The position numbers were made by a program, and so were the translations under genes. From NCBI GenBank assembly GCA_004321885.1, contig SCQK01000007.1, positions 64,001 to 128,000 of the forward strand: a stretch of DNA of 64,000 nt, written 5' to 3'. Below the pieces are notes generated by a model that saw only the letters and a program-made list of their open reading frames with translations, did no database searches and had not been told where the DNA came from. The DNA is from Patescibacteria group bacterium (lineage in GTDB: Bacteria > Patescibacteriota > Patescibacteriia > Magasanikbacterales > GWA2-37-8). Shown here one piece after another: positions 2,246 to 31,600 of the stretch; the stretch's first letter is position 1; every line of letters starts with the position of its first letter.

Positions 2246-2365
2246 CTCAATGAGATGGAATTGAACGTTTGAGAACAGTGCTTGGAATGCGCGTTTATGC
2301 GCTCTTTCCTGCACTTTCAGCGTCACTGATTGAATAGAGACTGGGACTTCGAACCCACGAGGTGA

Positions 2366-2593: not shown

Positions 2594-2784
2594 AGACTTC
2601 TCCTAGAGTTATGTAGATCTCTCGATCGTAGTTCCAAGAAGTACCGGAGTCAAGCATATTTGTCACACCGGTGCGCGATGTGCTCCCTTGTGGGGGAGGA
2701 AATGGAACGCGCATGTTCGAAAATGTTCTTGACACATCCAATGCGGTTCCGGTACGGTAATACAAACAACCAAACGGAGGAGTC

Positions 2785-3678: not shown

Positions 3679-3754
3679 CAAAGCGGCAACAACGCCCGCC
3701 CCGAAGCCCTATTCCACCTGCCCGTCGTCATTGTTTGTAAGTCGCACATATTCT

Positions 3755-11907: not shown

Positions 11908-13101
11908 CTATAATTCTTTCTCCATCGCCACTATCGCTTTTATTTCTTCTATCTTTATCCCGCCTTTTTCCGTCGCTGTCTGCGCCAGGGTTTTTCTGTC
12001 GGCCAACGCGCCGCACACCGCGTCCATGTATTCCAAATAAAGAGGGCTCTGTTTCCAGGCGGCCTGCGCGTCCATATATAATAGGTAGGATTCGTCGCGC
12101 AGGTTGATGAATTTTTGTTTCAGGCGCTGGCCCGCCTCGGCGCAGTTTTGCGCCAAACGGCGAAAATCCGTCAGACTAATATATTTTACCTCATCTATGG
12201 GTCCCATTTCAACAGGCGGAGCGGAAATATCCCGCATGCTCTGTTTTACCGGCGCGCTTCCTAACTTGAACGACGAGGATTGTGTAGCCCCCTCCCCTCT
12301 TAGGGAAACCGTCATCTTCCCCTCCCCTTGATAAGGGGAGGGCTCGCCACCACACCAAAATTTTTGGTGTGGTGGCGAGGGAGGGGCAGTCGCAACCGGC
12401 TTCTCTTCAGGCGCCAAAAGCGCGTGCAAAAGCTCGTTGGCTTTTTTCTTGCTCTCGGGCACAGTTGGTCCCCCCCCTCCTTTAGAAGGAGGGGGCAAGG
12501 GGGTGGTCTTGACCTTTTCTGAATGTTCAAACGGGTTAAACGGAGTTGCTGTCGCCGGCAACAATACCTCTTCGCACGCTCCCGCCGCTTTCTCGGCCTG
12601 ATTGGCCGTAAAACCCATGCCACCGTCTTTTATGGAACGCAATAAAATATTTTTCGTTTCTTCGGGCGAGCGCACGTCTTTGAGGCGCAACTGAATAATA
12701 CTGCGCAAGCGATTGATAAAGTTGGGCGGCACTGGAAAATTTATTTTTTTGAGCGCCTGGTCCACCTGGCTTAGGCGCGGCTCGCTCAATTTCGGCGCGT
12801 CGCCCTTGGCCGGCGCCGGCTCTTCCAAAGGCGACCGAAAATCATTATTCGCTTTCTTCGTTCCCATCATCGGCGCCGTGGGATACGGCGGTCGTTTTGG
12901 CGCTACTTTCACTCCCTCCCCTTTTAGGGGAGGGGCAGGGAGTGGGGTATTGTGCGCCGCTTGTCTTACCTGCGACAAAGGCATGCGCACAAAACTGCCG
13001 TCGGCCTTTTTTACCAAAATTGTTGGTTCGTTTGGCATATTATTTACCCCTGCCTCCCTCCCCCTTAAATAAAGGGGGGGACAGGAGGGGGTATTATTCA
13101 C
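11908..13101 (-). CDS. Pro-rich hypothetical protein with four in-frame GC-hairpin repeat insertions
   Basis: the first 20 codons are encoded by a repeat, so the likely true start is MPNEP at about 13038; repeat-encoded segments at 12286-12345, 12470-12500 and 12912-12950. Confidence 0.45.
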   Translation of the reverse strand: MNNTPSCPPLYLRGREAGVNNMPNEPTILVKKADGSFVRMPLSQVRQAAHNTPLPAPPLKGEGVKVAPKRPPYPTAPMMGTKKANNDFRSPLEEPAPAKGDAPKLSEPRLSQVDQALKKINFPVPPNFINRLRSIIQLRLKDVRSPEETKNILLRSIKDGGMGFTANQAEKAAGACEEVLLPATATPFNPFEHSEKVKTTPLPPPSKGGGGPTVPESKKKANELLHALLAPEEKPVATAPPSPPHQKFWCGGEPSPYQGEGKMTVSLRGEGATQSSSFKLGSAPVKQSMRDISAPPVEMGPIDEVKYISLTDFRRLAQNCAEAGQRLKQKFINLRDESYLLYMDAQAAWKQSPLYLEYMDAVCGALADRKTLAQTATEKGGIKIEEIKAIVAMEKEL

Positions 13102-19650: not shown

Positions 19651-22600
19651 TTATGTTAATTTTTTCAATTGTTCGCTGTCCAATCCTCTAATTAGCTTGA
19701 ATAGCTCCTGAATGTTCTTGATTCCCTGATCCCTTAGCCCCTGATCGTTTTGGGCGTTATTACGGTGCTGAAGTTCAATTTTACTGGACTCCGTCACATT
19801 AAATTCTTTAATATGCCTGACCGCCTCGGCCCCAAGATTATATTTTTGCAAGAAACCTTTAATGGCGGCGGCTTGTTCGTTATTAAGCAACGTAGCGCTG
19901 GCCCGCATTGTTTTGCGCACGCTTTCAATTACTTGTTGCGCTTCTCCACCAAAAGTAGTAGCGACTTCCTGCGCCAGCATATTCATTGTGGCGTCATCAA
20001 TCCAACTTTGTTCAAATAAGCCTTTCAAAATTGTCTGGGCCACCATTTTATCTTCCCAGGTCTGCTTGCCTTTCCCTTTAAGTGTAACATGGTTCATATG
20101 CCCGCGATGCGCCTGGAGCAACTGGTCGTAATTCATGTCCTTGAAATTCTTGAAAAATCCTTCCACCACGGCTTCTTCGGCGGCGGTGTTTGGCACATCA
20201 ATGCCCATATTGCCCCAAATATTCGCTTGCCCGGCCTTAGAAATCATGTCCTGGCGCGTGCCGCGATACAAAGTGTATTGATGATCGCGCAAGGCCAGCT
20301 GATGAGCCGCGTAAAGAGCGGGGTTGGCCGCGCCAGCTTTTCCCCAAACCGCGCTTAATTGTCCGCGCGACTGGGTGAGCGATCCCGACAAAGACTTGCC
20401 GATTTCTTCGACATTAGCCGCCGATCCGGCTTGCCGGAGCTGGCCCAATATTTGCTGTAATACATTGATTTCGGTTTTGGCTAAAAAATTTTCATCCATT
20501 TGCTGTTTGCCAAAAAGGACCTTAAAATTATTTTCAAGAGCGGTACCTTTCGTTGAACTAAGAAATGCTTGCGCGGCTGTTGCGTCAATTTTGCCGCCGA
20601 CTTTAATTTTTTCCATTGCCTTTGTCAGAGTTTCCAAACTCGCGGCCAATTCCTGTATTTTTTGTTGATTGGCGCCGCCGCTAAAAATACCGGCCGCGCT
20701 TTCCATCCCCTTCAATTTATTTTCATCAGCTTCTATTTCAGATTCTAAATTTCCAATCTCGTCAGCCAGCCTAACCCCTCTTTCAGTTTCATCGTCCGTC
20801 GGATTCGCTTTATTATTCAATACACCATACTCTCTTTTCATTTCTTCTAATGCACTCTTTTTAGAATCCAGACCAGTTCTCATTCCTTCAGCTTTTTCCC
20901 CGGCCGCCAACGCGGAAGCCACGCCCTGCAAAGATTGAATTCGCGTTTCGATGGGAGCCGATTCCGCTTCCAGCTTTCCCTTCCCTTTTTCATTTAACGC
21001 GCTTTGCGCGGCCAAAAGATTCTTCTCCTCTTCCGAACTTAATCCTTCTTGTTCAGACTTACTGCGCGCCAAGGCGCTAACATATTGTTCGCCCTGACTG
21101 GTATTTATCAGCCCGCCCCTAACGCTCGCTTCAATAAATTTAATCAGCTCCTCGGCAATTTGCCCGCCCAGTTCGCCCATTTTTTTAGCTTCCACTGTGT
21201 GCCGAAATCTTTGGAAAAACGCCGCCCTATTTCTCTTCGCTCCCATTTCTTCCAACCCGATTTCCGCCTCGGCCCGCGCTTTATGCGCCTGAATTTGTTC
21301 GCTGACTGTTCCCAAACCATATTTGTCTTTTTCACCAATTTGGAATTCGCCGTTCTTAAATCGCGCATTGCCTTTCACCGCGCGGCGGCCGTATGCCTTG
21401 TATTCGGTGGTTTTTTCTTCCGAACGCGCTTGTTCTGCCTCAAGCATGCCCTTTTCTATGCGATCCAACGCGTTAATGGACGGCCCTTCAAAGGCCTGAA
21501 ATAAATATTTTGGATCGGCGCTGATTCTTTTGTCCATCAATTCTTCGCGCACCTTGGCGAACTCCTGCACTCTCTTCAATTGTTTCCGGCTGCGCAAAAG
21601 CTTTTCGTGCCTCCCATGGAAGAAACGCTGAAACGGACCGCGACCCTCGTCAACGACCTGCTCTGTGTACCATTCATCCCCCTCTCGCACAAGCTTCGCG
21701 CCTTTTTTAATATCGGCCGCGGCCGCTTTTTTCGCCTCCTCTTCTGTCGCCACGGCTACTCCGCTTTTGTCGGTAATAAGATTTTTTTTCTTCTTAAAAT
21801 CATACTTCATCTGCGTTATCGCCTTACCATTCTCATCATATAATTTTCCGCTCTCATCGGCTGTTACACGAGCATTTTGTTCATCTTCGGTCAAAGCGTC
21901 TTTAGAATCTACTATTTTATTATTCTCGTCACGCTTAACTTTATGCCATGCTTTGCTTTTTTCGTCATATTCCATCTTATAACCCATCAATTCTTCATTT
22001 CTGGACAACCTGGATTTAATGTTCAATTCTTCCTCCTTCGTTTCCAACCGCGGCCCGCCGGCACGCCAGGCTCGCCAGCCCTCCACAATTGACCTTTGCA
22101 AATCGCCTTTGATTCTTTCAACTCTATTAGCCAATAAACCCTGATACAATCCTTTTCCTGTTAATTTTGCCAAACCAATCCCCGCTTTCTTAGCCCCCTC
22201 AACCCCCTTTTTCGCCGCCCAGCGCGCCGCGGTGTACCCGCTCGCCACCGCCGCCACCTTCTTGCCGAAGTCCGTCACTTTGCCCATCATGGCCCCGCCG
22301 GTTACGCCCAGCGCCTGGGTCACTTTCGCCCCAATCAAAAGCATGCCAATGGCAATGGCGAAGTTGGCCATGGCCGGCCATGTCATTGCCGCCGTAATTC
22401 CGGCGCTCTGGCCGCCAACTTTAATGTTTGACGCGCCCGCTGATTCAATGCCCTCATCGGTAATTTGAACCGGAACCGAATTATTGCTGGGGTCAGCTAT
22501 CTCTTTGCTTACTGTCCCGGACCCCACCACGGCAAAAGACAACCAAAGAAAAAACGCCAAAATCGGCCCGACAATCACGTGATTGCCAAACTCGGTCCAC

Positions 22601-23415
22601 CACTGGCTGGCGTATTTTTGCGTTTGCGGTATGACATTCAAAACAAAAGCCAAAGGGGATAAAATGATAAGCACCCAAAGCACAATCATACGCGCCAAAA
22701 GAATCACCAGATAAACACCCATGGTCACCATAGCCATCCCCGCAAAAGCGACTGCGGCAACCGAAGCCATAAATATGCCGGACATCTTGTAATTCTCCGG
22801 TTGCGTGCCGCCGGCAAATCTTTGTATATCATTAAAATTGAAGGCGTTTATAAGATTGCCGCCGGCCGTGGCCGCCACGCCATTGATAAAAGTTATCATC
22901 ACCACCTGGGCCAGGTCTATAATCAACCCGGCAATGGTGCGGCTGAAATTTACAAGTATCGCGGCAAACAATAATTTCACCAGTAATTTTTTGTATTCAT
23001 ATTGCTCTATGCCCAAAATTGTGCCAAAGGCGATAACGAGCAGGATAATTACAAAAAACATGTTGGTAACATCGCGCACCAACACCCACCCAGTAGTTAC
23101 CGCCGTTGAATCTATAAATCCATTGTATCCCCCAATTTGAATGGTAAAACGCAGAATGAAAATTGTAATCTTCATGAACAACGCCGCCATCCACATGGTA
23201 AAAGTAGTGCCGGCGCTCATTATGGCATCAAAAAATCCATCAGCCTGCGCCACTTCGGCGCCCATCACCCACATCAACAAAACAGTCGTGGCCACCATCA
23301 CAAACGAAACCATGCCCAACTTCCTGCTGGGTTTCAAAAATCGCAAAACAGCGCTCGCGGCCGCGCGCGCTTTTACGCAAACTTTACTCGCCTTTTTCCA
23401 AAGGGAGACAAGCAT
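19651..23415 (-). CDS. VirB6/TrbL-like polytopic membrane protein with a roughly 900-aa charged coiled-coil C-terminal extension
   Basis: about 380-aa N-terminal multi-TM domain, then a Lys/Glu-rich low-complexity region; context with VirB4 and PrgI. Confidence 0.55.
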   Translation of the reverse strand: MLVSLWKKASKVCVKARAAASAVLRFLKPSRKLGMVSFVMVATTVLLMWVMGAEVAQADGFFDAIMSAGTTFTMWMAALFMKITIFILRFTIQIGGYNGFIDSTAVTTGWVLVRDVTNMFFVIILLVIAFGTILGIEQYEYKKLLVKLLFAAILVNFSRTIAGLIIDLAQVVMITFINGVAATAGGNLINAFNFNDIQRFAGGTQPENYKMSGIFMASVAAVAFAGMAMVTMGVYLVILLARMIVLWVLIILSPLAFVLNVIPQTQKYASQWWTEFGNHVIVGPILAFFLWLSFAVVGSGTVSKEIADPSNNSVPVQITDEGIESAGASNIKVGGQSAGITAAMTWPAMANFAIAIGMLLIGAKVTQALGVTGGAMMGKVTDFGKKVAAVASGYTAARWAAKKGVEGAKKAGIGLAKLTGKGLYQGLLANRVERIKGDLQRSIVEGWRAWRAGGPRLETKEEELNIKSRLSRNEELMGYKMEYDEKSKAWHKVKRDENNKIVDSKDALTEDEQNARVTADESGKLYDENGKAITQMKYDFKKKKNLITDKSGVAVATEEEAKKAAAADIKKGAKLVREGDEWYTEQVVDEGRGPFQRFFHGRHEKLLRSRKQLKRVQEFAKVREELMDKRISADPKYLFQAFEGPSINALDRIEKGMLEAEQARSEEKTTEYKAYGRRAVKGNARFKNGEFQIGEKDKYGLGTVSEQIQAHKARAEAEIGLEEMGAKRNRAAFFQRFRHTVEAKKMGELGGQIAEELIKFIEASVRGGLINTSQGEQYVSALARSKSEQEGLSSEEEKNLLAAQSALNEKGKGKLEAESAPIETRIQSLQGVASALAAGEKAEGMRTGLDSKKSALEEMKREYGVLNNKANPTDDETERGVRLADEIGNLESEIEADENKLKGMESAAGIFSGGANQQKIQELAASLETLTKAMEKIKVGGKIDATAAQAFLSSTKGTALENNFKVLFGKQQMDENFLAKTEINVLQQILGQLRQAGSAANVEEIGKSLSGSLTQSRGQLSAVWGKAGAANPALYAAHQLALRDHQYTLYRGTRQDMISKAGQANIWGNMGIDVPNTAAEEAVVEGFFKNFKDMNYDQLLQAHRGHMNHVTLKGKGKQTWEDKMVAQTILKGLFEQSWIDDATMNMLAQEVATTFGGEAQQVIESVRKTMRASATLLNNEQAAAIKGFLQKYNLGAEAVRHIKEFNVTESSKIELQHRNNAQNDQGLRDQGIKNIQELFKLIRGLDSEQLKKLT

Positions 23416-23428: not shown

Positions 23429-23791
23429 TTATGCGACTATATTATACCACAAAAAAAGCTCCGTAACAACGAAGCTGGGGATAAAAATACACGGGAAGCA
23501 GCCCGAGAGCTGAATGGGAGACGAGCCGTCGTTCCAGTCAATCTTTACATCTCGTATGGGCATCTGGTTCATGTCGGCATAAGCGTAAAATTTGAGGGTA
23601 ACGCGGGAGGGAGAGACGGGTATTGTTACGTCAGCGCTGGTTTTGTCGTTGATGGTGAGGCCTTCGGCGCCCTCAAAACAGATGCCGTTCCGGCAATTTA
23701 CCGCATCCAAGCTGTATACATTGTTTAATTTGGCAAACAAATAATTCAAATCGTTAAACAACCCTTTTTCCACCTGGCACTGGCTTTGCAC
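23429..23791 (-). pseudogene. orphan fragment of the giant-protein 3' region
   Basis: 120 aa; 23520-23700 is about 95% identical at nucleotide level to 27040-27240 and about 85% to 29285-29450. Confidence 0.6.
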
Positions 23792-23885: not shown

Positions 23886-24284
23886 ATGACTGATTTAGCC
23901 AGGCAACTGGAATTTTGGCTTTCGTCGGCCTCAAAAAATTGGCAGACCGCACTTTCTCTGTATAAATTAGGCCATTATGACATGTGCTTATTTTGCTGTC
24001 ATTTGACTTTAGAGAAAAAACTTAAAGCTATTATTGTCTACCTATTGAAAAAAGTACCACCGCCGATTCACGATTTAAATCGTTTAGCGCAAATCGCGGG
24101 GTTAAATGTTTCTCTCACACAACAAGAACAGCTTAATGAAATAACGAAATTTAATATCCAAGCCCGTTACGATGATATAAAATTGGCTTTTTACAAAAAA
24201 GCTACCAAATTATTCGCAAAAAAATATTTGGAAATAACACAAGAATTAATTTTATGGCTGGAAAAAAAATCGGGCGAGAAGTAA
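23886..24284 (+). CDS. HEPN-domain protein (TA-like partner of MNT)
   Basis: 132 aa alpha-helical; overlaps the downstream nucleotidyltransferase by 31 nt. Confidence 0.55.
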   Translation: MTDLARQLEFWLSSASKNWQTALSLYKLGHYDMCLFCCHLTLEKKLKAIIVYLLKKVPPPIHDLNRLAQIAGLNVSLTQQEQLNEITKFNIQARYDDIKLAFYKKATKLFAKKYLEITQELILWLEKKSGEK

Positions 24285-24592
24285 TGGAAAAAGTCGGTAA
24301 ATTAAAAAAATCTATTGAAGCGGACGGCATAAAAGTGCACAGTATATTTGTGTATGGCTCGTATGCGAAAGGGAATGCGCACAAATGGAGCGACATAGAT
24401 GTTTGTGTCGTTTCAAAAAATTTTGGGACAAAAATTAAAGAGCCGCAGAATTATTTATGGTCTAAGCGCGTAGTTTTACACGATTATTCTTTAGAACCGA
24501 TTGGATTTAGCTATAAAGATTTTAGATTTAGTAATTCACCTTTAATTAGCGAGGTACGTCGTACTGGCGTAAATATCGGCGATAAGGTATGA
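24254..24592 (+). CDS. minimal nucleotidyltransferase (MNT)
   Basis: VYGSYAKGNAHKWSDIDVCV (GS-x9-DxD). Confidence 0.7.
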   Translation: MAGKKIGREVMEKVGKLKKSIEADGIKVHSIFVYGSYAKGNAHKWSDIDVCVVSKNFGTKIKEPQNYLWSKRVVLHDYSLEPIGFSYKDFRFSNSPLISEVRRTGVNIGDKV

Positions 24593-24713
24593 ATCAACAA
24601 TTCTTGCGCCAGGTAATGATTGGCAGGGGCGACGGCTCGACACCGGTTCAACTTGACGGCTGCTTCCTCAATCATCTGTGGAAATTTATCCACCGAAATT
24701 ATGTATAGGCTAA

Positions 24714-24950
24714 GATACTCCCAAAATTCACAACCTCGTCAGACTTTTATTTTTGACGGAACTCCACATACCGCAGTATATCAAGTGTCAAATTGAGGAT
24801 TTAAATCCGCATTATCTTATACCTCGTTATCCTGATTTGGAATTCAAACCAAAATTTAGTTTTACCCACAACGAAAAGAACGCGAAAAAAATAATTAATT
24901 CCGCCGAAAAAATTGTAGTATGTCTAAAAAGCAAGTTAGAAAGATACTAA
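24714..24950 (+). pseudogene. degraded HEPN-like remnant paired with the second MNT
   Basis: only a short ORF with a non-ATG start; same 31-nt overlap geometry with the next MNT; resembles the C-terminal half of HEPN. Confidence 0.3.
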
Positions 24951-25249
24951 CAAAATTTGAAAATGAATTATCCAAAAAAATCAAAGTGGATAATATTTTT
25001 ATTTTTGGCAGCGCTGCCAGAGGCGAAATGACCAGAGACAGTGACTTGGATTTAATTGTCATTTCCAACAATTTCGACAAAATGGACTTCATGAAACGGT
25101 TGCAATTATTGTCGCGGGCCAGCGCGTGCTGCGCCGACAAGATTGCGATGGACGTGGTTGGATACACAATCAAAGAATTTAGGGACATGGACAAAGTTGA
25201 ATCGTTATCCTTAAAGAGAATCATGCGCGAAGGATATTTTGTGCGATGA
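24920..25249 (+). CDS. minimal nucleotidyltransferase (MNT), second copy
   Basis: IFGSAARGEMTRDSDLDL motif. Confidence 0.7.
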   Translation: MSKKQVRKILTKFENELSKKIKVDNIFIFGSAARGEMTRDSDLDLIVISNNFDKMDFMKRLQLLSRASACCADKIAMDVVGYTIKEFRDMDKVESLSLKRIMREGYFVR

Positions 25250-25327
25250 GATAAGTTGTGAAACTCATTAAAAAACTTATCCACTCTTTTTTCTTGACAC
25301 CGCTTGGCTAAAAATGCGACAATACCC

Positions 25328-25356
25328 TTGACAAAAGGGTGTTTTTGTGTTATGTT
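25328..25356 (+). promoter_or_regulatory. sigma70-like promoter of the lipoprotein module
   Basis: TTGACA-17nt-TATGTT; mirrored at 28574-28602 on the minus strand. Confidence 0.45.
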
Positions 25357-25433
25357 GTATGGTTCTTTCACAAAGTGCTAAGTAGGCCAGTATATGGCCT
25401 GGTTAGCCACAAAAGAAGGTTTGGGTAAAGAGT

Positions 25434-25572
25434 GTCATTGCGAGAAGGGAGCGTAAGCGACCGACGCCTGTCCGCCTCTGGCGGAAAGCAATCCCAGTCA
25501 ATTACGAAAGGCCTGCCTGTCGGCAGGCAGGGATTGCCGCGTCGCTCACTGCGTTCGCTCCTCGCAATGACA
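25434..25572. repeat. family-A palindromic element (GTCATTGCGAG...GCAATCCC...GGGATTGC...CTCGCAATGACA) in the 5' leader
   Basis: 139-bp near-perfect inverted repeat; copies at 28358-28496, 36856-36937, 51831-51911, 52934-53009 and 54239-54314. Confidence 0.8.
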
Positions 25573-25613
25573 AACAACGTTTTTCCCCGCTTCGGCGGGG
25601 AAGGAGAAAGTCC

Positions 25614-26009
25614 ATGCTGAAGAAATTGATCGCCACCCTCCTCTGCGTCGCGTTCGCGATGCTCGCCGCGTCCTGCGGCGATGATGGCAAGACCCCGCCC
25701 CCGTCCGACGCGCGGGTCTCGCCCGAACTCCGCGCGGACGGTTGTCCGCCCGGACGAAAAAGGGACAACGTGTCCGGCGAGTGCGTGCTCGCCGACGGGC
25801 TTGTGCCAGACACGAAGAAACCCACGCCGGATACGGGTGTGTGCCCCACACTGCCGAAGGAGGAGGTTGCGTGCAAATTGGGCAAAACCACTGTCGTCAG
25901 TTGCACACTGACAAAGTGGAAACCTGGTGGCTGTGTCGACGTGTGGTGCGCGTGCAACACCGACCCTGGTTGTAACGGGTGGTGGCGCCGCGCTGACTGC
26001 GGCCTCTAA
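25614..26009 (+). CDS. small Cys-rich lipoprotein (GC about 65%)
   Basis: signal peptide + lipobox LAASCG; 10 Cys; a paralogue at 27894-28316 on the minus strand. Confidence 0.6.
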   Translation: MLKKLIATLLCVAFAMLAASCGDDGKTPPPSDARVSPELRADGCPPGRKRDNVSGECVLADGLVPDTKKPTPDTGVCPTLPKEEVACKLGKTTVVSCTLTKWKPGGCVDVWCACNTDPGCNGWWRRADCGL

Positions 26010-26019
26010 CCTTCAAAAA

Positions 26020-26050
26020 CTGCACTGAGCAAGACGTTCGGTGCAGTAAA
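26020..26050 (+). terminator. possible terminator hairpin
   Basis: CTGCAC...GTGCAG stem followed by an A/T-rich tract; large loop. Confidence 0.3.
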
Positions 26051-26089
26051 AATTGTATTCTTTAAAAGAAGAACCTAAAAAGAAGAAAC

Positions 26090-26455
26090 TTACAAGACGA
26101 ACTTTAAAAGATTTTTTAATTCTTTTTCCTCTTCTATAAACTTTTTTTTCATCCTGCGAGCGGCGGCATAGCTGATTTGAAAGTCATTTTTTAATTGACG
26201 GGCGGTGTAATTTGAATCGCTTAAATAATTTTCAAACGCGGATAACCATTTTACCAAAGGTATTCTTGTCTTGTGGAATACTACCTCGGAGATGTCGGAA
26301 AATCTCCTTAAACAATTTTGACAAGTGTATTTTTTTATTTTCCTTTTATCTCTAATGGTGTAAACTCTCTTTGAGAAACAATCAGGACAAACCAGACCGC
26401 GAGGCCAATTCATTCTGCGCAGTGCCTGAAGGATTTGCGTTTCAGAATATATCAT
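26090..26455 (-). mobile_element. IS1595/ISXO2-family transposase N-terminal zinc-ribbon domain only (truncated remnant)
   Basis: WPRGLVCPDCFSKRVYTIRD...YTCQNCLRRFS...FHKTRIPLVKWLSAF matches the IS1595 Tnp N-domain; no DDE domain follows. Confidence 0.6.
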
Positions 26456-26456
26456 A

Positions 26457-27842
26457 TCATTTCGGAGCTACAATGATGGATTTGGGAGAGGAGCCGCCGA
26501 AGGGGGTCCAGGCACCACTATCTAAAGGAAAACATTCATCATCGTAAGTATTCCCGGTGATTTGTCTTCTATCATAACACCCCGTCTTCCCCGGGCTATT
26601 CGCGTCACCGCACACCCCATTACACCACCCCCAATTATCCTTGACCTGTACCTTGGGGGTGTATTTGCAACAGCCTTCTTTGAAAGCGAGGTCGGACGGG
26701 CATTGAGAAGCCGGAACAAAGTTGGCGCTGTCTTTGACGCACTGATAGGAATAGTCGGCGCGGAAGTACGCGTTGTCGCAGGTTTTGTCCACAATCTGGC
26801 CGAAGTTGGGGGCGATGTTTTCCGGCAGGCATTGGTCTATGTTTTTGCAGTCATTCACTGACTGGCACTCTTTGTTTGTTGGTTTCTCAGTACCATACAC
26901 TTCTTTGTGCGTCACGGTATTATAAGAAGCTGTTTTTATATAGCAATATTTCTTGGCGTTAAATTCCCCGCCAACGGATTGGAAATCGCATTTCGTGCCT
27001 GTGGTTTTGCCTCGGTGATTGCGGAAGTAGCCCGAGAGCTGAATGGGAGACGAACCATCGCCCCAGTCAATTTTTACATCTCGTATGGGCATCTGGTTCA
27101 TGTCGGCATAAGCGTAAAATTTGAGGGTAACGCGGGAGGGAGAGACCGGTATTTTCACGTCATCACTGGTTTTGTCGTTGATGGTGAGGCCTTCGGTGCC
27201 CTCAAAACAAATGCCATTCCGGCAATTTACCGCTAAAATTTTCGGAGCCAAAGCCGCAGAAGATTGCTCGGTCGCATTGAAAAGATTATTTTGCGAAGAA
27301 ACGCGCGCCTGATAAACTCCAGCCTCATCCAAGCTGTATACATTGTTTAATTTGGCAAACAAATAATTCAAATCGTTAAACATCCCTTTTTCTATCTGGC
27401 TGTCCGAAAGCTGGCTTAGCAGCGGAGGCGCCGGCCTGGAAAAATCAAGCGTGCCGTCCACGGCGCCGCTCGCGGTCTTGTTCGTCTGCCCGCCTGGATT
27501 GATATTTTTGGAACTGTAAGGCGCGCCGGTCACAGTTTGGCTGGTGTTTTGCTGGCGAGGGCCGTACAGTAATTTAATATCTTCCTTATCCGTTAAAGGA
27601 GGATTAGTGATATTTAGACTGCCAAACGGAGACATCAGGGTTTTGAAAATATAGTCGGCCAATTTATCCACACCTGTCGGCGAGGTATGCAAATTAACAG
27701 TAAAATTTCCGCCTTCCCAAATTCTGTTTGTTTTGGCCGTATTGGCCCTGTAAGCCGCGTCCGCGATTTGCATAAATTTTCTTAAAGTAGTATTGCGTAT
27801 TCTCTTGAAAAGAGAAGGGATTCTCTGCTCAAGGGAACGCAC
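26457..27842 (-). CDS. orphan paralogue of the C-terminal ~480 aa of the giant protein (possibly silent cassette)
   Basis: collinear with the giant protein C-terminus; 26560-26860 is about 90-95% nucleotide-identical to 28780-29060. Confidence 0.6.
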   Translation of the reverse strand: MRSLEQRIPSLFKRIRNTTLRKFMQIADAAYRANTAKTNRIWEGGNFTVNLHTSPTGVDKLADYIFKTLMSPFGSLNITNPPLTDKEDIKLLYGPRQQNTSQTVTGAPYSSKNINPGGQTNKTASGAVDGTLDFSRPAPPLLSQLSDSQIEKGMFNDLNYLFAKLNNVYSLDEAGVYQARVSSQNNLFNATEQSSAALAPKILAVNCRNGICFEGTEGLTINDKTSDDVKIPVSPSRVTLKFYAYADMNQMPIRDVKIDWGDGSSPIQLSGYFRNHRGKTTGTKCDFQSVGGEFNAKKYCYIKTASYNTVTHKEVYGTEKPTNKECQSVNDCKNIDQCLPENIAPNFGQIVDKTCDNAYFRADYSYQCVKDSANFVPASQCPSDLAFKEGCCKYTPKVQVKDNWGWCNGVCGDANSPGKTGCYDRRQITGNTYDDECFPLDSGAWTPFGGSSPKSIIVAPK

Positions 27843-27893
27843 CGCGAGGCGATGCGTGAGAAGGTTAGGATGGGTGGGCGAGGTGGGGCGACG

Positions 27894-28316
27894 TCACTGC
27901 TTGGTGCAGGTGACATACTTGTCAGCTGTTTGACAAGATGTCGACTGTGCCGAAGCACAGGGAGCAACCGCCCCCCCCCCGTTCGTACAAGGGAAACGAC
28001 AGCCAGAGCCGTCTTTGTTCTCTGTCCCATCTGGAGAACATTGACGGATTTCTGATCCGGTGCACACCCACGTACCACCTTTCGGGCACTTCCCAGACGT
28101 GGTGTCCGGCGTGGGCGTTCCCTTGTCGCACTTCCCCTGCGCCGAGACGACGCAGGTAGGAAACGAGTCGCCGACGAGCCCGTCGGCGCGGAGAGTGTCC
28201 GCAATGCGCGCGTCGGACGGGGGGGCGGAGCCGGTGTCATCGCCGCAGGACGCGGCGAGCGTCGCGAACGCGACGAGCGTCGCGCAAAGGAGGATAGCGT
28301 TCAATTTCTTCAGCAT
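27894..28316 (-). CDS. small Cys-rich lipoprotein paralogue (GC-rich)
   Basis: MLKKLNAILLC...LAASCGDD lipobox; 12 Cys. Confidence 0.6.
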   Translation of the reverse strand: MLKKLNAILLCATLVAFATLAASCGDDTGSAPPSDARIADTLRADGLVGDSFPTCVVSAQGKCDKGTPTPDTTSGKCPKGGTWVCTGSEIRQCSPDGTENKDGSGCRFPCTNGGGAVAPCASAQSTSCQTADKYVTCTKQ

Positions 28317-28357
28317 GTTCCTTCTCCTTCCCCACCGAAGCGGGGGTTTCGTTGTTT

Positions 28358-28496
28358 GTCATTGCGAGGAGCGAACGTAGTGAGCGACGCGGCAATCCCT
28401 GCCTGTCGACAGGCAGGCTTTTCGTAATTGACTTGGATTGCTTTCCGCCAGAGGCGGACAGGCGTCGGTCGCTTACGCTCCCTTCTCGCAATGACA
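28358..28496. repeat. family-A palindromic element in the leader (inverted copy of 25434-25572)
   Basis: sequence identity. Confidence 0.8.
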
Positions 28497-28573
28497 CCCA
28501 TTACCCAAACCTTCTTTTTGTGGCTAACCAGGCCATATACTGGCCTACTTAGCACTTTGTGAAAGAACCACAC

Positions 28574-28602
28574 CTTATACCACAAAACTGGGGTTTTGTC
28601 AA
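28574..28602 (-). promoter_or_regulatory. sigma70-like promoter (TTGACA-17nt-TATAAG) of the minus-strand lipoprotein module
   Basis: mirror image of 25328-25356. Confidence 0.45.
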
Positions 28603-28698
28603 CCTCGCCAAGAGGCCCCGCCTCCGGCAGGGTCAAGGGTATTGTCGCATGGCGGAGTGAACTCGTCAAGAAAAGATGTGATAAGTGACGATGTTTTT

Positions 28699-31600
28699 TT
28701 ATTTGGGAGCCACGATGATGGATTTGGAGAAAGAAGTAAATGCACCAGTATCATCTGTACACTCATCTTTTCCTCCATTCCAAAAACCCTGATAACACCC
28801 CCCGTCCTTCCCACCCGGACAACTCCCGTTACACCACCCCCAGTTATCCTTGACCTGCACCTTGGGGGTGTATTTGCAACAACCTTCTTTGAAAGCGAGG
28901 TCGGACGGGCATTGAGAAGCCGGGACAAAGTTAGCACTGTCTTTGACGCACTGGTAGGAATAATCAGCTCGGAAGTAGGCGTTGTCGCAGGTTTTGTCCA
29001 CAATCTGGCCAAAGTTGGGGGCGATGTTTTCCGGCAGGCATTGGTCGATGTTTTTGCAGTCGGTATCAGAACCGACTGTCTGGCAGGTTTTCGTCATGGG
29101 CCTCCTTATCTCGTGTTTATCTTCCGGCTGCACATAGGCGTCGGTTACAATGGTGCAGCGATTTTCTTTCACATCCTGATTAAGCGGATTGGGTACACTC
29201 TCACATTTGCCATCCACCTTCCCTCGGTGATTGCGGAAGTATCCATCAAGGACAACCGGCGCCGAGCCATCGTTCCAGTCTATCTTTACATTCCTGATGG
29301 GCATTTGGTTCATATCGGCATAGCCGTAAAATTTGAGGGTAACGCGGGAGGGAGAGACCGGTATTTTTACGTCAGCGCTGGTTTTGTCGTTGAGGGTGAT
29401 GCCGGCTGGCCCTTCGGTGCAAATGCCGCCCTGACAGTTGACAGACAGGACTTTGGGGGCTTTGAGAAAATTACTTAATGTCTCGGTGCGGTTAATTCCT
29501 TTGACTTCGTATGCATCTGAATTATATCGCTTATATATACCGAGATTATCTAGAGCAAATAAATTGTTGACTTTGGCGAATAGACTGTCAAGACGCGACA
29601 CGGAATTTATGCCTGCCGGCAAACCCGCGGGGGCTGGTTTGGTGAAATCAAGAGTGCCGTCCGGATTGCCACTAATTGTTCTGTTGACATAGCCGCCCGC
29701 ACCTGTGCTGCTTTTCGCGCCATACGGAGCGCCCACAATGCTCTGGATGGCATTCTGCTGGCGCGGGCCATAAAGTAACCGCAGGTCTTCTTTTTCCAAA
29801 GAAGGAGGATTGTTGATGTTGAGAGAGCCAAATGGTTCGGTGAGAGTTTTGAAGATGTAATCCGAGCCAGAGCCGGAAAAAGAGACGGAATATTTGCTTC
29901 CCTCCCAAATCCGGTTGGTCCAGGCCGTGCTCTGCCTGTCGGCAACATCGGCGATTTGGTCGCAGTATTCTCTTAATCGCGCCGTCACTTTTATATTTAT
30001 TGGAAAATAAGATTGGCCCGACTGCTCCTCATTTGGCCACCAGCCAGGACCGCCGCCGGCCAAACATTTTGCCACACCGACTTTAATCAGCTTTTTGTCT
30101 TTGTCAAACACCAAAACCACTTCCAAAGATTGCTGTCTGTCTTCTTTGCCGTTATCGCACAAATCGCCGGCGTCTTTGGCGGTCACCTGCATAACACTGT
30201 CTTTCAAACTATCTCCGTATTCGGGAAAAAATCCGGACTGGTCTTTAATGTAGTCGCGTTGCAGAACCCCGGCTCCCGCGTCCCGGTTATCGGAGAAAAA
30301 TCTCATTATGGTGTAATCGTTAAATTGTTTGATGCGCGTTTCCGCCAGCGGCGGCCGCGTGTTGATGGGTTTCTCAAATATTAAAGAATGTTCTTTTTCC
30401 GTATCACACAGTTCGGTTGAGTTGTAAGCGTCTCCTTTCAGCGAACCATCCGCGTTTTCTTCCGCCACCACGCATCCTGATTTGCCCGCCTGGTCAATGT
30501 AATTTTTTCCGTACAATGTTCTGACCCGTTTCGTAATATCGCTCTTGGCGCCATTACGGATAATATATGTGCCGCGCACCACATTATTGTCACCGCCGAT
30601 ATTTATGAACATGTCGGCCTCAATTTCCACCTGGTCTATATCATACAAATGAATGTCGTAATCAGCCACTTGTGAAAAAGTAACTCTGTTAAATAGACTG
30701 CCATATTTCCAAGACGCGGGATTGGGGTCTTTATGGCCGGGAAAATTAAACTCCTGCGGGTCATCTGCTTTGGCGAACGGCGTATAACCGACCATTTTTG
30801 ATGAAACAGAACCTGGTTTGATTATCGTCTCTGCCTTCAATGAATAAACAATGCCCTGGGGCACGAGTGTTCTGCTAAACGGAGACGGCATCAATGGCAA
30901 AAGAGACACGCCATAGCATTCTGACGGGTCGCAAAAATAATGTGCGTCATCGCTATTTGTAAAATATTGACGCGGCTGTTGGTCGCTGCCGGGGACTTGA
31001 TTATAGAGCGACTCTCCGATTTTTGGATTCACAGTGCTATTGATTGTAAGGTCGTTGGAATAAAAGGCGACTATTTGGCCTACTACACTTTTATAAATAG
31101 TGGCGCATCTTTGAATCTTTTCCTTGCTACAAAACCTTCCAAAAAAAGTCGGATAAGCGCTGTAATCGCCCCTATTCCCCGCTTCTCTGGCGCAATAATA
31201 CCGTCCATAGGCCGCGGGCTTGTAGCCGGCTTCGTCAAACTGGTTGTCCACGTCCAATGCCCCATTCAAGGTCTGCACCGGCAGCCAGGACAGGCACTGA
31301 AAGTTGGTCTGCTCGGAATTTATCGGGCGAGACATATCTTTTTCCAGACAAAAACCACGCCAGCCGATGAAGCGGTTTTCTTTTTTCTTGATTTCGCAAG
31401 TGCCGGATGTCTGGCCCGCGCAATCATCGTCAGTCGCGCAGGGCTTGGTGTCATAAGAGCCGCCCAGACAATAGCCCTGGGGCACGGCATTACCTTTGTT
31501 CGGATTGGTGTAGCCCCAGTATTTTACAGTGCTGTCTCCGTAATTTACCTTCGTGTAATCGCATTCGCAGGCAGAAGCGGTTTTGGTGTCCGTGGTTTCA

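What the first reader, a model, noticed from the sequence alone, without database searches (positions are those of the whole stretch)
25328..28602. Inverted-duplicated module: promoter + about 250-nt structured leader + high-GC Cys-rich lipoprotein, bracketing the orphan cassette and IS remnant
25328-25620 and its reverse complement at 28320-28602 are near-identical. Each carries TTGACA-17-TATGTT/TATAAG hexamers, a conserved GGCCAGTATATGGCC hairpin and the 139-bp family-A palindrome. Each precedes a divergent (about 50% aa identity) small lipoprotein with 10-12 Cys (25614-26009 on the plus strand; 27894-28316 on the minus strand). The lipoprotein genes are about 65% GC, in a locus whose neighbours (HEPN/MNT) are about 35% GC. 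The strongly conserved non-coding leader with diverged coding parts suggests selection on the RNA structure or promoter. One copy lies immediately downstream of the giant gene; if the locus is toxin-like, it could be an immunity or partner gene.
Basis: partly seen in the sequence, partly recalled or inferred. Interest (0 to 1): 0.6.

Follow-up and report, generated by a model that had tools for sequence, protein, structure and literature searches.

The report
Duplicated lipoprotein gene with boxA-like leader
The inverted repeat is real: it is two copies of a small, fast-evolving surface-lipoprotein gene that sits beside the giant-protein and secretion-system genes of many ultra-small (CPR) bacteria and carries a conserved leader resembling the "boxA + hairpin" anti-termination signal of ribosomal RNA operons.

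Summary
Two inverted arms (about 25275-25741 and 28180-28685) each hold tandem sigma-70-type promoters, a leader of about 250 nt and a Cys-rich lipoprotein ORF. A 217-nt core is 93-100% identical.

The 140-bp palindrome is a multi-copy MITE and a passenger. The leader is more than that element. In 13 related metagenome loci by covariance model, and about 20 counting regex matches, a promoter-proximal G-Y-T-C-T-T-T motif is followed by a covarying hairpin. The motif matches the 7-nt core of the published boxA consensus and is 9/9 to E. coli rrn boxA in some loci. It always lies upstream of a GC-rich lipoprotein gene with extreme C-ending codon bias.

That gene lies between the giant gene's 3' end and the VirB6-like gene in 22 of 31 loci. 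Window and L025 have each duplicated a [giant C-terminal cassette + lipoprotein] unit.

Best reading: a high-expression cassette for a variable surface lipoprotein, a probable partner of the giant protein's C-terminal domain, with a Nus-type anti-termination leader. The near-identity of the arms is a gene-conversion tract.

Not shown: Nus binding, DNA inversion, and sequence homology of the window lipoproteins to the family.

The parts
25294..25356 (+). Left arm, tandem promoter-like sites: TTGACA-18-GACAAT (25294-25323) and TTGACA-17-TATGTT (25328-25356), each with TG before the -10
   Evidence: scan; sequence. The same TTGACAAAA...TGnTAnnnT architecture lies upstream of the lipoprotein genes in related loci.
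25361..25374 (+). Left arm, boxA-like element GGTTCTTTCACAAA at the start of the predicted transcript
   Evidence: G-Y-T-C-T-T-T is invariant in 15 distinct leaders. It matches the core of the boxA consensus GYTCTTTAANA (PMC5725501) and rrn boxA UGCUCUUUA (PMC2724277).
25375..25410 (+). Left arm, hairpin 1 (GUGCUAA...GGCCAGUAUAUGGCC...UUAGCCAC), directly after the boxA-like element
   Evidence: fold. CM hit 25359-25415, 44.6 bits. Covariation: helix 1 is 92.9% paired, 5 of 7 pairs have changes on both sides, score 0.435 vs 0.179 in shuffles.
25433..25572 (+). Left arm, 140-bp family-A palindromic MITE inserted in the leader (long variant with two nested insertions)
   Evidence: Termini occur 17 times in the window vs 0.3 expected. 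Alignment with the 77-83-bp copies. Absent from the leaders of L002, L003 and L013.
25585..25606 (+). Left arm, GC hairpin with UUCG loop (CCCCGCTTCGGCGGGG, 25585-25600) abutting the Shine-Dalgarno AAGGAG (25601-25606)
   Evidence: sequence; fold. Analogous tetraloop hairpins lie before the SD in L002, L003, L017 and L025.
25614..26009 (+). Lipoprotein 1 (131 aa): signal peptide, lipobox LAAS|C, 11 Cys in the mature part; 64% GC, C-ending codon bias
   Evidence: Only a self hit in the protein databases.
26090..26455 (-). IS1595-family transposase remnant (zinc-ribbon N-terminus only)
   Evidence: Pfam PF12760, E 6.8e-10.
26457..27842 (-). Orphan copy of the giant protein's C-terminal ~425 aa (60% aa identity; a 237-nt tract is 94% identical)
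   Evidence: D1, D2.
27894..28316 (-). Lipoprotein 2 (140 aa): same signal peptide and lipobox, unrelated Cys-rich C-terminal half; 62% GC
   Evidence: only a self hit in 1.84 billion representatives.
28324..28345 (-). Right arm, SD AAGGAG (28329-28324) and GC hairpin CCCCGCTTCGGTGGGG (28345-28330)
28357..28496 (-). Right arm, family-A MITE, 97% identical to the left copy and at the identical position
28520..28569 (-). Right arm, boxA-like element (28569-28556) and hairpin 1 (28555-28520)
   Evidence: CM hit 28515-28571, 46.2 bits.
28574..28669 (-). Right arm, tandem promoter-like sites: TTGACG-17-GACAAT (28669-28641) and TTGACA-17-TATAAG (28602-28574), separated by a 29-nt insertion absent from the left arm
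28699..36885 (-). Giant Cys-rich secreted protein (2728-aa ORF; probable start MKKISATIL at 36849); its C-terminal domain is the duplicated cassette
   Evidence: Syntenic homologues in more than 25 loci.
23429..23791 (-). Third, truncated copy of the giant C-terminal cassette, directly upstream of the VirB6-like gene
   Evidence: translation compared with the orphan sequence.
19651..23415 (-). VirB6-like polytopic membrane protein (1254 aa), first gene of the T4SS-like block (PrgI 11478-11906; VirB4-like ATPase 8876-10747)
   Evidence: L002 context with PrgI and TraC-like.
23886..25249 (+). HEPN/MNT toxin-antitoxin-type genes (35-39% GC) inserted between the module and the VirB6-like gene
   Evidence: Pfam. 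The same kind of insertion occurs in L006, L025, L028 and L036.

Best explanation
The module is a conserved accessory gene of the giant-protein / type-IV-secretion-like locus of Patescibacteria (CPR), here duplicated in inverted orientation.

**Each copy is a high-expression cassette for a small, fast-evolving, Cys-rich surface lipoprotein.** Reading 5' to 3' it contains:
1. Two tandem near-consensus sigma-70 promoters.
2. A boxA-like sequence at the 5' end of the transcript, followed immediately by a hairpin. This is the boxA-spacer-stem-loop layout of lambda nut and rrn anti-terminator sites.
3. A tolerated MITE insertion.
4. A tetraloop hairpin abutting a strong Shine-Dalgarno sequence.
5. 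A coding region with extreme C-ending codon bias.

**Proposed mechanism (inferred).** NusB/S10, with NusA, NusG and SuhB, load on the nascent boxA. This makes RNA polymerase resistant to Rho and to pausing through the long, structured, untranslated leader, so the gene is transcribed at rRNA-like efficiency.

**Proposed role of the product (inferred).** It is an abundant membrane-anchored lipoprotein that works with the variable C-terminal domain of the giant protein. The evidence is that [C-terminal cassette + lipoprotein] units are duplicated together.

**Origin of the near-identical core (inferred).** The 217-nt near-identical stretch of the two arms is a recent gene-conversion tract inside an older duplication. 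The mature lipoprotein parts have diverged or been replaced.

**Shown:** the anatomy, the conservation and covariation of the leader, its linkage to the lipoprotein and to the giant and VirB6-like genes, and the codon bias.

**Inferred:** Nus dependence, high expression, partnership with the giant protein, and gene conversion.
For: **Anatomy and duplication:**

**Conserved position**
- L002 and L003 have a convergent GC-rich Cys-rich lipoprotein between the giant gene's end and the VirB6-like gene.
- Across 61 loci fetched with the VirB6-like N-terminus, 22 of 31 loci that hold both flanking genes have such an ORF in the gap (synteny).

**Leader**
- A covariance model built from 7 leaders finds 16 hits in 589 kb searched on both strands. 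All lie on the lipoprotein strand upstream of the VirB6-like gene, and both window copies are among them.
- Every hit with downstream sequence is followed by a lipoprotein ORF.
- The hairpin covaries: helix 1 is 92.9% paired, 5 of 7 pairs have changes on both sides, and the score is 0.435 against 0.179 in shuffles (0/500) and at most 0.187 when slid.
- In 17 of 18 distinct leaders with a promoter-proximal boxA-like match, a hairpin starts 0-3 nt after the motif, with z from -1.5 to -5; the exception, L011, is cut by the contig end.
- G-Y-T-C-T-T-T is invariant in 15 distinct sequences. That equals the core of GYTCTTTAANA. L003, L017 and L025 carry UGCUCUUUA, identical to E. coli rrn boxA.
- The distance from the -10 hexamer varies from 5 to about 70 nt, so the motif is not a promoter element.
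- The window encodes NusA and a SuhB-type inositol monophosphatase.

**High expression**
- Third-position C is 0.46 in the lipoproteins against 0.18 in the adjacent VirB6-like genes, while third-position G is unchanged.
- TTC 0.81 vs 0.13; AAC 0.79 vs 0.25; ATC 0.71 vs 0.20.
- GC3 excess averages 0.29.
- In the window the lipoproteins have the highest NNC fraction (0.79 and 0.70), ahead of RNase Y (0.68) and GroEL (0.56) and level with the serine recombinase at 4164-5672 (0.71); most other genes are 0.23-0.42. The bias holds on both strands.

**Pairing with the C-terminal cassette**
- Window order: CT - lipo2 - orphan CT - lipo1.
- L025 order: CT - lipoA - orphan CT fragment - lipoB.
- L036 has two lipoprotein copies.

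**Gene conversion**
- Identity is 0.93-1.00 only across 25360-25571, which includes the non-conserved MITE. It is 0.72-0.90 in the promoter and 0.65-0.90 in the 5' CDS.
- The giant/orphan C-terminal pair has a parallel 94% tract.
- dS rises from 0.14 in the signal peptide to saturation beyond codon 45.
Against: - The window's own boxA-like element (GGUUCUUUCACAA) departs from the enterobacterial consensus at positions 8-9.
- The boxA of the rRNA operons of these lineages could not be obtained for comparison.
- No nusB, nusG or rho gene lies in the window.
- A Nus signal on a monocistronic 400-nt gene has no obvious necessity.
- The covariation counts come from an alignment fitted to the model.
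- The window lipoproteins are not detectably homologous to the family found in other loci (local HMM E 0.85 and 9). Orthology therefore rests on position, leader and architecture.
- High expression is inferred from codon bias alone. GC-biased gene conversion could contribute.
- Nine of 31 loci lack the gene.
- No structural or interaction evidence links the lipoprotein to the giant C-terminal domain. The AF2 model of that domain had pLDDT 42.
Confidence: 0.55

Rival explanations
1. Invertible-segment switch. The near-identical inverted leaders are recombination sites. Inversion of the 2.7-kb segment between them changes which lipoprotein coding region, or which orientation of the orphan cassette, is expressed. 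This would be phase or antigenic variation of the kind seen in the Mycoplasma vsp/vsa loci or in shufflons.
For: - 217 nt of 93-100% identical inverted repeat flank the segment.
- The 5' UTR and signal peptide are conserved while the mature parts have diverged, which is the pattern of variable-lipoprotein families.
- A large serine recombinase exists in the window at 4164-5672.
- The locus clearly recombines, as the gene-conversion tracts show.
Against: - Both arms carry their own promoters, leader and SD, so inversion within the leader would not turn anything on or off.
- No recombinase gene is adjacent; the only one is 20 kb away, next to a tRNA.
- In other loci the duplicated modules are in tandem, not inverted (L025, L036).
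- No alternative arrangement could be found. The leader 20-mer has no match in the metagenome collection and one chance match in the genome collection.
Confidence: 0.12
2. Polymorphic toxin with immunity genes. The giant protein's C-terminal domain is a toxin, the orphan cassette is a spare toxin tip, and each lipoprotein is the cognate immunity protein.
For: - An orphan C-terminal cassette and a further fragment lie downstream of the giant gene.
- C-terminal cassettes and lipoproteins alternate in the window and in L025.
- Both components evolve fast.
Against: - The C-terminal domain is one conserved Cys-rich family across all loci (30-40% identity along its full length), not a set of unrelated toxin folds.
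- It has no Pfam or PDB match.
- In most loci the lipoprotein is convergent with the giant gene, with its own strong promoter, rather than co-transcribed downstream.
- Its extreme codon bias and rrn-like leader fit an abundant structural protein better than an immunity factor.
Confidence: 0.12
3. The leader is a different cis-regulatory RNA or DNA element, such as a protein-binding operator, an mRNA-stabilising 5' hairpin or an unknown riboswitch. On this reading its resemblance to boxA is coincidental.
For: - Only a 7-nt core is invariant, and positions 8-9 vary.
- The element lies at the very 5' end of the predicted transcript in many loci, where 5' hairpins are known to stabilise mRNAs.
- No Nus dependence has been shown.
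Against: - The invariant heptamer is exactly the boxA core, and several loci match rrn boxA 9/9.
- The conserved single-stranded sequence followed by a variable-sequence hairpin is the nut layout.
- The distance to the promoter varies, which argues against an operator.
- No Rfam family matches.
Confidence: 0.2
4. Horizontally acquired island. The high-GC lipoprotein genes are foreign DNA that arrived with the IS element, and the palindrome-bearing arms are the ends of a composite mobile element.
For: - GC is 62-64% against 49% for the window.
- An IS1595 remnant lies between the arms.
- The proteins are ORFans in 15 billion sequences.
Against: - The same kind of gene, with the same leader, occupies the same position in more than 20 diverged lineages.
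- The GC excess is a third-position C bias specific to this gene in every lineage.
- The arms are promoters and leaders, not transposon ends.
Confidence: 0.03

Closest known systems
Nus-factor anti-termination sites: rrn leader AT (boxB-boxA-boxC), lambda nutL/nutR (boxA-spacer-boxB), and boxA elements upstream of suhB and CRISPR arrays
   Same: - A promoter-proximal single-stranded GYUCUUU... sequence is followed by a stem-loop. It matches the consensus core in all leaders and is 9/9 to UGCUCUUUA in some.
- It precedes a long, structured, untranslated stretch.
   Different: - It stands in front of a single small protein-coding gene in Patescibacteria.
- Positions 8-9 of the consensus vary.
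- The hairpin has a conserved G-C/G-C base and a CCAAWA 3' flank, unlike boxB.
- Nus binding and any termination being overcome are untested.
Small fast-evolving lipoproteins of type IV secretion / conjugation loci (VirB7; exclusion lipoproteins such as ICEBs1 YddJ, which targets the VirB6 homologue ConG, or RP4 TrbK). The YddJ and TrbK details are recalled from memory, not tested here.
   Same: - A small lipoprotein is encoded beside the VirB6-like gene of a T4SS-like cluster, evolves very fast and has no HMM. PMC12102498 notes the same of VirB7.
   Different: - No sequence similarity was shown.
- It is Cys-rich with an acidic linker.
- It has its own rrn-like promoter and leader and is transcribed divergently from the T4SS genes.
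- It is co-duplicated with the giant protein's C-terminal cassette rather than with VirB6.
Variable surface lipoprotein gene families of Mycoplasma (vsp, vlp, vsa). Recalled from memory.
   Same: - Paralogues share a nearly identical promoter, 5' UTR and signal peptide, with divergent mature parts.
- They are abundant surface lipoproteins of wall-less or reduced epibionts and parasites.
- Some loci have acidic repeat linkers (L025 (SD/TD)n).
   Different: - There are only two copies.
- Both have promoters.
- There is no adjacent site-specific recombinase.
- No evidence of switching was found.
Rickettsia palindromic elements and other MITEs (for the 140-bp family-A palindrome)
   Same: - It is a multi-copy palindromic element with conserved termini, and other copies are inserted in frame in LeuRS and ComEC.
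   Different: - The copy in the leader is a longer variant with nested insertions and lies in a 5' UTR.
- No transposase partner was identified.
- No published description was found.
Orphan C-terminal cassettes of large surface or toxin proteins (CdiA/Rhs orphan modules; silent cassettes for antigenic variation)
   Same: - Truncated copies of the 3' end of a giant gene lie downstream, with near-identical tracts that allow recombination.
- Each is accompanied by a small partner gene.
   Different: - The C-terminal domain is one conserved family without a toxin signature.
- The partner is a secreted lipoprotein with its own promoter, usually convergent with the giant gene.

Membership tests
Nus-dependent anti-termination site (boxA / nut-like) | boxA sequence matching the consensus (GYTCTTTAANA; rrn UGCUCUUUA) | tested here: inconclusive
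   The GYTCTTT core is invariant in 15 distinct leaders, and the match to rrn boxA is 9/9 in L003, L017 and L025. The window copies read GGTTCTTTCACAA, differing at positions 8-9 (consensus).
Nus-dependent anti-termination site (boxA / nut-like) | Lies in the transcribed leader shortly after the promoter, on the sense strand | tested here: met
   It lies 5-70 nt downstream of predicted -10 hexamers and always on the lipoprotein strand. Transcription starts are predicted, not mapped.
Nus-dependent anti-termination site (boxA / nut-like) | Adjacent stem-loop (boxB-type), as in lambda nut | tested here: met
   A hairpin starts 0-3 nt after the motif in 17 of 18 distinct leaders; the exception, L011, is cut by the contig end. 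Covariation score 0.435 vs 0.179 in shuffles.
Nus-dependent anti-termination site (boxA / nut-like) | The same boxA is present in the rRNA operon leaders of the organism | not testable with these tools
   No rRNA gene is in the window or in the 66 loci held. Collection scans were exhausted.
Nus-dependent anti-termination site (boxA / nut-like) | Binding of NusB/S10 and Nus-dependent read-through | not testable with these tools
   Only NusA and a SuhB-type inositol monophosphatase are seen in the window. nusB, nusG and rho are not in the window.
Bacterial lipoprotein (Lgt/LspA substrate) | N-terminal signal peptide ending in a lipobox with an invariant Cys | tested here: met
   MLKKL...MLAAS|CGDD and ...TLAAS|CGDD fit the PROSITE-type pattern, as do the positional counterparts in 22 loci. 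No dedicated predictor was run.
Locus-associated Cys-rich lipoprotein family seen in related loci (no name; no Pfam) | Sequence homology of the mature domain | tested here: not met
   A local HMM built from 8 members detects L002, L003, L023, L026 and L030, but not win1 (E 0.85) or win2 (E 9). The window proteins share only position, leader, architecture and codon bias.
MITE / palindromic repeat (family A) | Multi-copy element with conserved terminal inverted repeats and no coding capacity of its own | tested here: met
   Termini occur 17 times in the window vs 0.3 expected. There are six full copies of 77-140 bp.
Site-specific invertible switch / shufflon | Adjacent recombinase, and a promoter (or coding 5' end) on only one side of the invertible segment | tested here: not met
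   Both arms have promoters and complete 5' regions. The nearest recombinase is 20 kb away.
Site-specific invertible switch / shufflon | Both orientations present in the population | not testable with these tools
   No reads are available. The leader 20-mer has no related match in the metagenome or genome collections.
Polymorphic toxin / immunity module | A variable C-terminal toxin domain of recognisable toxin type, followed by a co-directional immunity gene | tested here: not met
   The C-terminal domain has no Pfam or PDB hit and is one conserved family. The partner gene is usually convergent with the giant gene and encodes a secreted lipoprotein.
VirB7 / T4SS exclusion lipoproteins | Small lipoprotein encoded within or next to the T4SS gene cluster | tested here: met
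   It lies directly upstream of, and divergent from, the VirB6-like gene in the canonical loci.
VirB7 / T4SS exclusion lipoproteins | Homology or a demonstrated interaction with VirB9 or VirB6 | not testable with these tools
   No profile exists for VirB7 (PMC12102498). There are no Pfam hits.

The most novel reading that the evidence does not exclude
Patescibacteria with a giant-protein/T4SS-like locus use an rRNA-style expression system: consensus promoters, a nut-like boxA-plus-hairpin leader, and extreme C-ending codon bias. It mass-produces a hypervariable Cys-rich lipoprotein that is the cognate membrane dock for the variable C-terminal domain of the giant surface protein. [C-terminal cassette + lipoprotein] units are kept as spare pairs. 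Recombination within the near-identical tracts (the 94% C-terminal tract and the 97% leader core) would swap the adhesin tip and its partner together, giving coupled antigenic or host-range variation in an epibiont.
Probability: 0.2. Interest if true: 0.75.

Novelty: new variant of a known kind. Interest (0 to 1): 0.6.

Why it matters
The T4SS-like system of Patescibacteria is widespread. It is reported as essential for epibiotic growth in the one strain tested (PMC12102498). Its accessory parts are unknown.

This work points to three things:
- A previously undescribed, positionally conserved lipoprotein gene sits between the giant surface protein and the VirB6-like gene.
- The gene carries a conserved, covarying RNA leader resembling boxA/nut. 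Outside rRNA operons, phages, suhB and CRISPR arrays, such elements are barely documented, and I found no report of one in CPR bacteria.
- The gene has a codon bias so strong that it shows up as a GC island in AT-rich genomes.

If the Nus reading holds, it extends processive anti-termination to a surface-protein gene of a reduced-genome symbiont. It also gives a simple sequence handle (GYTCTTT plus hairpin plus a C3-biased ORF) for finding what are probably the most abundant and variable surface antigens of these uncultured cells.

The co-duplicated cassettes make a partnership between the lipoprotein and the giant protein's C-terminal domain directly testable.

Tried and rejected
1. **Rfam.** There was no family at gathering score in the window and only chance-level hits around the leader.
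2. **Protein homology for the lipoproteins.** The word-indexed search gave only a self hit. The exhaustive HMMER search over 1.84 billion representatives gave a self hit plus a spurious MucBP-repeat protein. There were no Pfam hits and no meaningful PDB hits.
3. **Exact lookup of the source contig.** Nothing was on record for lipo1 or for the orphan cassette protein P0004.
4. **Leader 20-mer in public collections.** There was one chance match in a Cyclobacteriaceae genome with unrelated flanks and none in metagenomes. Close relatives, other copies in the same genome and the alternative orientation therefore could not be examined.
5. **Similarity of the lipoproteins to the giant protein.** None was found.
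6. **AlphaFold2 of the giant C-terminal domain with a 7-sequence alignment.** Mean pLDDT was 42, so no fold search was run.
7. **PDB sequence search with the orphan cassette.** No hits.
8. **Literature search for the palindrome termini.** Only unrelated primer sequences came up.
9. **rRNA genes in the held loci, to compare boxA.** None were found. The tRNA upstream regions in the window have ordinary promoters and no boxA.
10. **Rejected: the palindrome as the functional leader.** It is a MITE that is absent from the homologous leaders.
11. **Rejected: foreign origin of the high GC.** The gene is syntenic across lineages and the excess is a third-position C bias.
12. **Rejected: strand-specific mutation bias as the cause of the codon bias.** Both window copies, on opposite strands, show it.
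13. **Rejected: CTTT..AAAG as a small hairpin or palindromic operator.** AAAG is not conserved across the leaders.

Full report
**1. The observation**

The repeat finder reports these inverted pairs:
- 25411-25579 / 28350-28518: 169 nt, 96%.
- 25328-25425 / 28505-28602: 84%.
- 25585-25656 / 28274-28345: 83%.
- 25646-25741 / 28180-28275: 79%.

A pairwise alignment and a sliding-identity profile show a core at 25360-25571 that is 93-100% identical. The flanks are less similar: the promoter is 72-90% identical, and the SD region plus the first ~43 codons are 65-90% identical. Beyond about 25741 there is no similarity.

Homology also runs upstream to about 25275 / 28685, where each arm has a second promoter-like site:
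- + strand: 25294 TTGACA-18-GACAAT.
- - strand: 28669 TTGACG-17-GACAAT.

The right arm has a 29-nt insertion between its two promoters.

The two ORFs are 25614-26009 (+) and 27894-28316 (-). They share a start codon, a signal peptide and the lipobox LAAS|C. Identity is 52% over the first ~80 residues, and the C-terminal Cys-rich halves do not align.

The third codon position has the highest GC in the proposed frame (0.77 and 0.70), so that frame is the coding one.

**2. The 140-bp palindrome is a passenger**

Its termini (TGTCATTGCGAG...CTCGCAATGACA) occur 17 times in the window against 0.3 expected. The other full copies are 77-83 bp, so the leader copy is a longer variant with two nested insertions.

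Other copies lie in frame inside LeuRS (twice) and ComEC. The homologous leaders of other genomes lack the element. Unrelated MITEs of the same general type sit in the leaders of L023 and L028.

The strong predicted fold of the whole leader (z -8.7 and -7.5) is largely due to this palindrome.

**3. The module is conserved elsewhere**

The lipoproteins have no detectable homologues, and the leader 20-mer found nothing related. I therefore approached the question through the neighbouring genes.

The orphan ORF at 26457-27842 is 60% identical to the last 425 residues of the 2728-aa giant protein. Its few database homologues led to the following contexts:
- **L002** is syntenic: KsgA - small protein - giant gene - gap - VirB6-like protein - ... 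- PrgI - TraC-like.
- In the L002 gap, on the opposite strand, is a GC-rich ORF with a signal peptide, a lipobox and 9-10 Cys.
- **L003** and the end of **L005** show the same arrangement.

A search of metagenome contigs with the conserved N-terminus of the VirB6-like protein gave 61 loci. The order giant gene, gap, VirB6-like gene holds in more than 25 of them.

Of the 31 loci that contain both flanking genes, 22 have in the gap a convergent ORF with a lipobox, 4-14 Cys and a raised GC. The nine without it have gaps of at most 560 nt or are distant relatives.

The window also holds PrgI (11478-11906) and a VirB4-like ATPase (8876-10747) downstream of the VirB6-like gene. This is the monoderm-type T4SS described for Patescibacteria. 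That paper notes KsgA as a frequent neighbour but mentions no giant protein, lipoprotein or leader (PMC12102498).

**4. The leader**

Upstream of these lipoprotein genes there is always a near-consensus promoter of the form TTGACAAAA-N-TGnTATAmT.

In most loci the promoter is followed by the sequence (G/T)T(C)G-Y-T-C-T-T-T-N-(C/A)-A-A-(A/T)-G-U-G, and a hairpin follows immediately.

A covariance model built from seven leaders found 16 hits in 589 kb searched on both strands.
- All are on the lipoprotein strand upstream of the VirB6-like gene.
- Both window copies are among them (46.2 and 44.6 bits).
- There were no hits elsewhere.
- Every hit with downstream sequence precedes a lipoprotein ORF.

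On the resulting alignment the lower helix is 92.9% paired, and 5 of 7 pairs show changes on both sides. The covariation score is 0.435 against 0.179 in shuffles (0/500) and at most 0.187 for slid partners. One caveat applies: the alignment was fitted to the model.

The heptamer G-Y-T-C-T-T-T is invariant in 15 distinct sequences. The published boxA consensus is GYTCTTTAANA (PMC5725501). E. coli rrn boxA is UGCUCUUUA, and lambda nut sites are arranged boxA - spacer - stem-loop close to the promoter (PMC2724277).

L003, L017 and L025 carry UGCUCUUUA exactly. The window copies read GGUUCUUUCACAA.

The distance between the -10 hexamer and the motif ranges from about 5 to about 70 nt. That argues for an RNA element rather than a promoter or operator element.

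boxA elements outside rRNA are known for suhB and CRISPR arrays, and the consensus drifts between phyla. The window encodes NusA and a SuhB-type inositol monophosphatase. nusB, nusG and rho are not in the window.

I could not obtain an rRNA leader from these lineages, so the identification as boxA remains an inference. I put it at about 0.5.

**5. The "high GC" is codon bias**

Pooled over 20 lipoprotein genes and compared with the adjacent VirB6-like genes:

| Measure | Lipoprotein genes | VirB6-like genes |
|---|---|---|
| Third-position C | 0.46 | 0.18 |
| Third-position G | 0.25 | 0.24 |
| TTC | 0.81 | 0.13 |
| AAC | 0.79 | 0.25 |
| ATC | 0.71 | 0.20 |
| GTC | 0.47 | 0.10 |

GC3 exceeds that of the neighbour by 0.29 on average and by up to 0.57.

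In the window the lipoproteins have the highest NNC/(NNC+NNT) values, 0.79 and 0.70. RNase Y is 0.68 and GroEL 0.56, the serine recombinase at 4164-5672 matches them at 0.71, and most other genes are 0.23-0.42. The two lipoprotein copies lie on opposite strands, so this is not strand-specific mutation bias.

Several features together look like a cassette built for very high expression:
- tandem consensus promoters;
- the rrn-like leader;
- a tetraloop hairpin abutting a strong SD (window 25585-25606, with analogues in L002, L003, L017 and L025);
- the codon bias itself.

This is an inference. GC-biased gene conversion at a recombination hot spot is not excluded.

**6. Why two copies, and why so alike**

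In the orientation of the giant gene, the window order is: giant C-terminal domain - lipo2 module - orphan C-terminal domain - IS1595 remnant - lipo1 module (convergent) - HEPN/MNT genes - C-terminal fragment - VirB6-like gene.

L025 shows the same alternation in tandem: C-terminal end - lipoA - orphan C-terminal fragment - lipoB - HEPN/MNT - VirB6-like gene. Each lipoprotein there has its own boxA-like leader. L036 has two lipoprotein copies that are 68% identical.

So [C-terminal cassette + lipoprotein] units have been duplicated at least twice independently, which suggests the two parts work as a pair.

In the window the giant and orphan C-terminal copies share a 237-nt tract at 94% identity amid ~77% flanks. 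Recombination there would delete lipo2. It would leave the giant gene with the orphan's tail, convergent with lipo1, which is the canonical arrangement.

The most identical part of the leader arms is the MITE, which is not conserved between genomes, while the promoters are only ~84% identical. Synonymous divergence rises from 0.14 in the signal peptide to 0.6 in codons 21-45 and to saturation beyond. That pattern is best explained by a recent gene-conversion tract inside an older duplication. Selection on every base of a 250-nt structure explains it less well.

**7. Rivals**

- **Invertible switch.** It is not excluded but has little to recommend it. Both arms have promoters, no recombinase is adjacent, and duplicates elsewhere are in tandem. 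It cannot be tested without reads.
- **Toxin/immunity.** It fits the cassette layout. It does not fit the conserved, non-toxin-like C-terminal family, the usual convergent orientation, or the expression features.
- **Foreign origin.** It is contradicted by the conserved synteny.
- **The motif is something other than boxA.** This remains a serious alternative (about 0.2).

**8. Comparison with known systems**

The leader works like, and may be, a Nus-type boxA/nut site. The core sequence, its position and the adjacent hairpin are met. The rrn comparison and Nus binding are untested.

The lipoprotein resembles T4SS lipoproteins (VirB7, exclusion proteins) in size, location and rate of evolution. 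It resembles Mycoplasma variable lipoproteins in the conserved 5' region with divergent mature part. Membership in either group is not shown.

The window lipoproteins even fail a local profile built from their positional counterparts.

**9. Verdict**

The finding is real and more interesting than a simple duplication. The interest lies in the conserved boxA-like leader, the extreme codon bias and the linkage to the giant-protein/T4SS locus. It does not lie in the palindrome or in the inverted geometry.

Novelty: a new variant of known kinds (a boxA-type leader in a new setting, and a new T4SS-associated lipoprotein family). Interest: 0.6.

Noticed in passing
window 52933-53009, 54238-54314 (LeuRS, 52475-55012 -) and 51830-51912 (ComEC, 50925-52697 -): Family-A palindromic elements are inserted in frame inside two essential-type genes. 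They add about 27 residues ([26 protein letters not shown] in LeuRS, twice; VIARSETTKQSLAKNGIAALPTVARNDM in ComEC) without breaking the ORFs. This is reminiscent of Rickettsia palindromic elements.
   Followed up: partly
window 23886-25249; L006 721-1409; L025 4118-5041; L028 5259-5504; L036 868-1556: Low-GC (31-39%) HEPN/MNT-type gene pairs have been inserted repeatedly into the same intergenic region, between the lipoprotein module and the VirB6-like gene, in different lineages.
   Followed up: partly
window 25277 and 28672-28680 (degenerate); L003 3199, L016 5752, L023 5601, L025 5869, L026 1531, L034 5871 and others: A DnaA-box-like octamer, TTATCCAC, occurs 34 times in 538 kb of loci against about 16 expected. 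It mostly lies 80-150 bp upstream of the VirB6-like start, just upstream of a -35 hexamer. In the window it precedes the upstream promoter of the left arm. PMC12102498 reports that these T4SS loci are often near dnaA/oriC.
   Followed up: partly
window 26616-26852 vs 28825-29061: A 237-nt tract is 94% identical between the orphan cassette and the giant gene's 3' end, amid ~77% identical flanks. It encodes about 80 identical residues. It is a likely gene-conversion tract and a substrate for cassette replacement.
   Followed up: partly
window 23429-23791 (-): A third, internally deleted fragment of the giant C-terminal cassette (120-aa ORF) ends 13 nt before the VirB6-like start codon, so the usual VirB6 promoter region is displaced.
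   Followed up: no
window 2154-5672: tRNA-Ser (2154-2246), a putative amidase (2785-3678) and a large serine recombinase (4164-5672; NNC codon fraction 0.71, atypical) may mark an integrated element.
   Followed up: no
L013 3155-5140 (-): Beside the small lipoprotein there is a 661-aa, GC-rich lipoprotein with 57 Cys and C-terminal WG-type repeats in the same intergenic region.
   Followed up: no
window 6886, 14488, 39082: A second palindromic-element family has the terminus TGTCATTCCGAG, one base different from family A. Related GTCATTCC... elements occur in L016, L017, L023 and L028 near the leaders.
   Followed up: no
window 47319-48560, 55014-55790, 56806-58824: NusA, a SuhB-type inositol monophosphatase and IF-2 lie in one minus-strand block together with LeuRS and ComEC. 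This is relevant to the Nus hypothesis but was not analysed further.
   Followed up: no
L025 982-1563 and 2905-3468 (-): The two lipoproteins of this locus have long (SD/TD)n acidic repeat linkers after the lipobox. This is another sign of rapid, repeat-driven variation in the family.
   Followed up: no
window 13268 (-): TTCTTTAACAA, matching positions 2-11 of the boxA consensus GYTCTTTAANA (an A replaces the initial G), lies inside the 3' end of the EamA/riboflavin-kinase ORF, about 165 nt upstream of the 397-aa ORF at 11908-13101. No convincing promoter is present, so it is probably chance.
   Followed up: no
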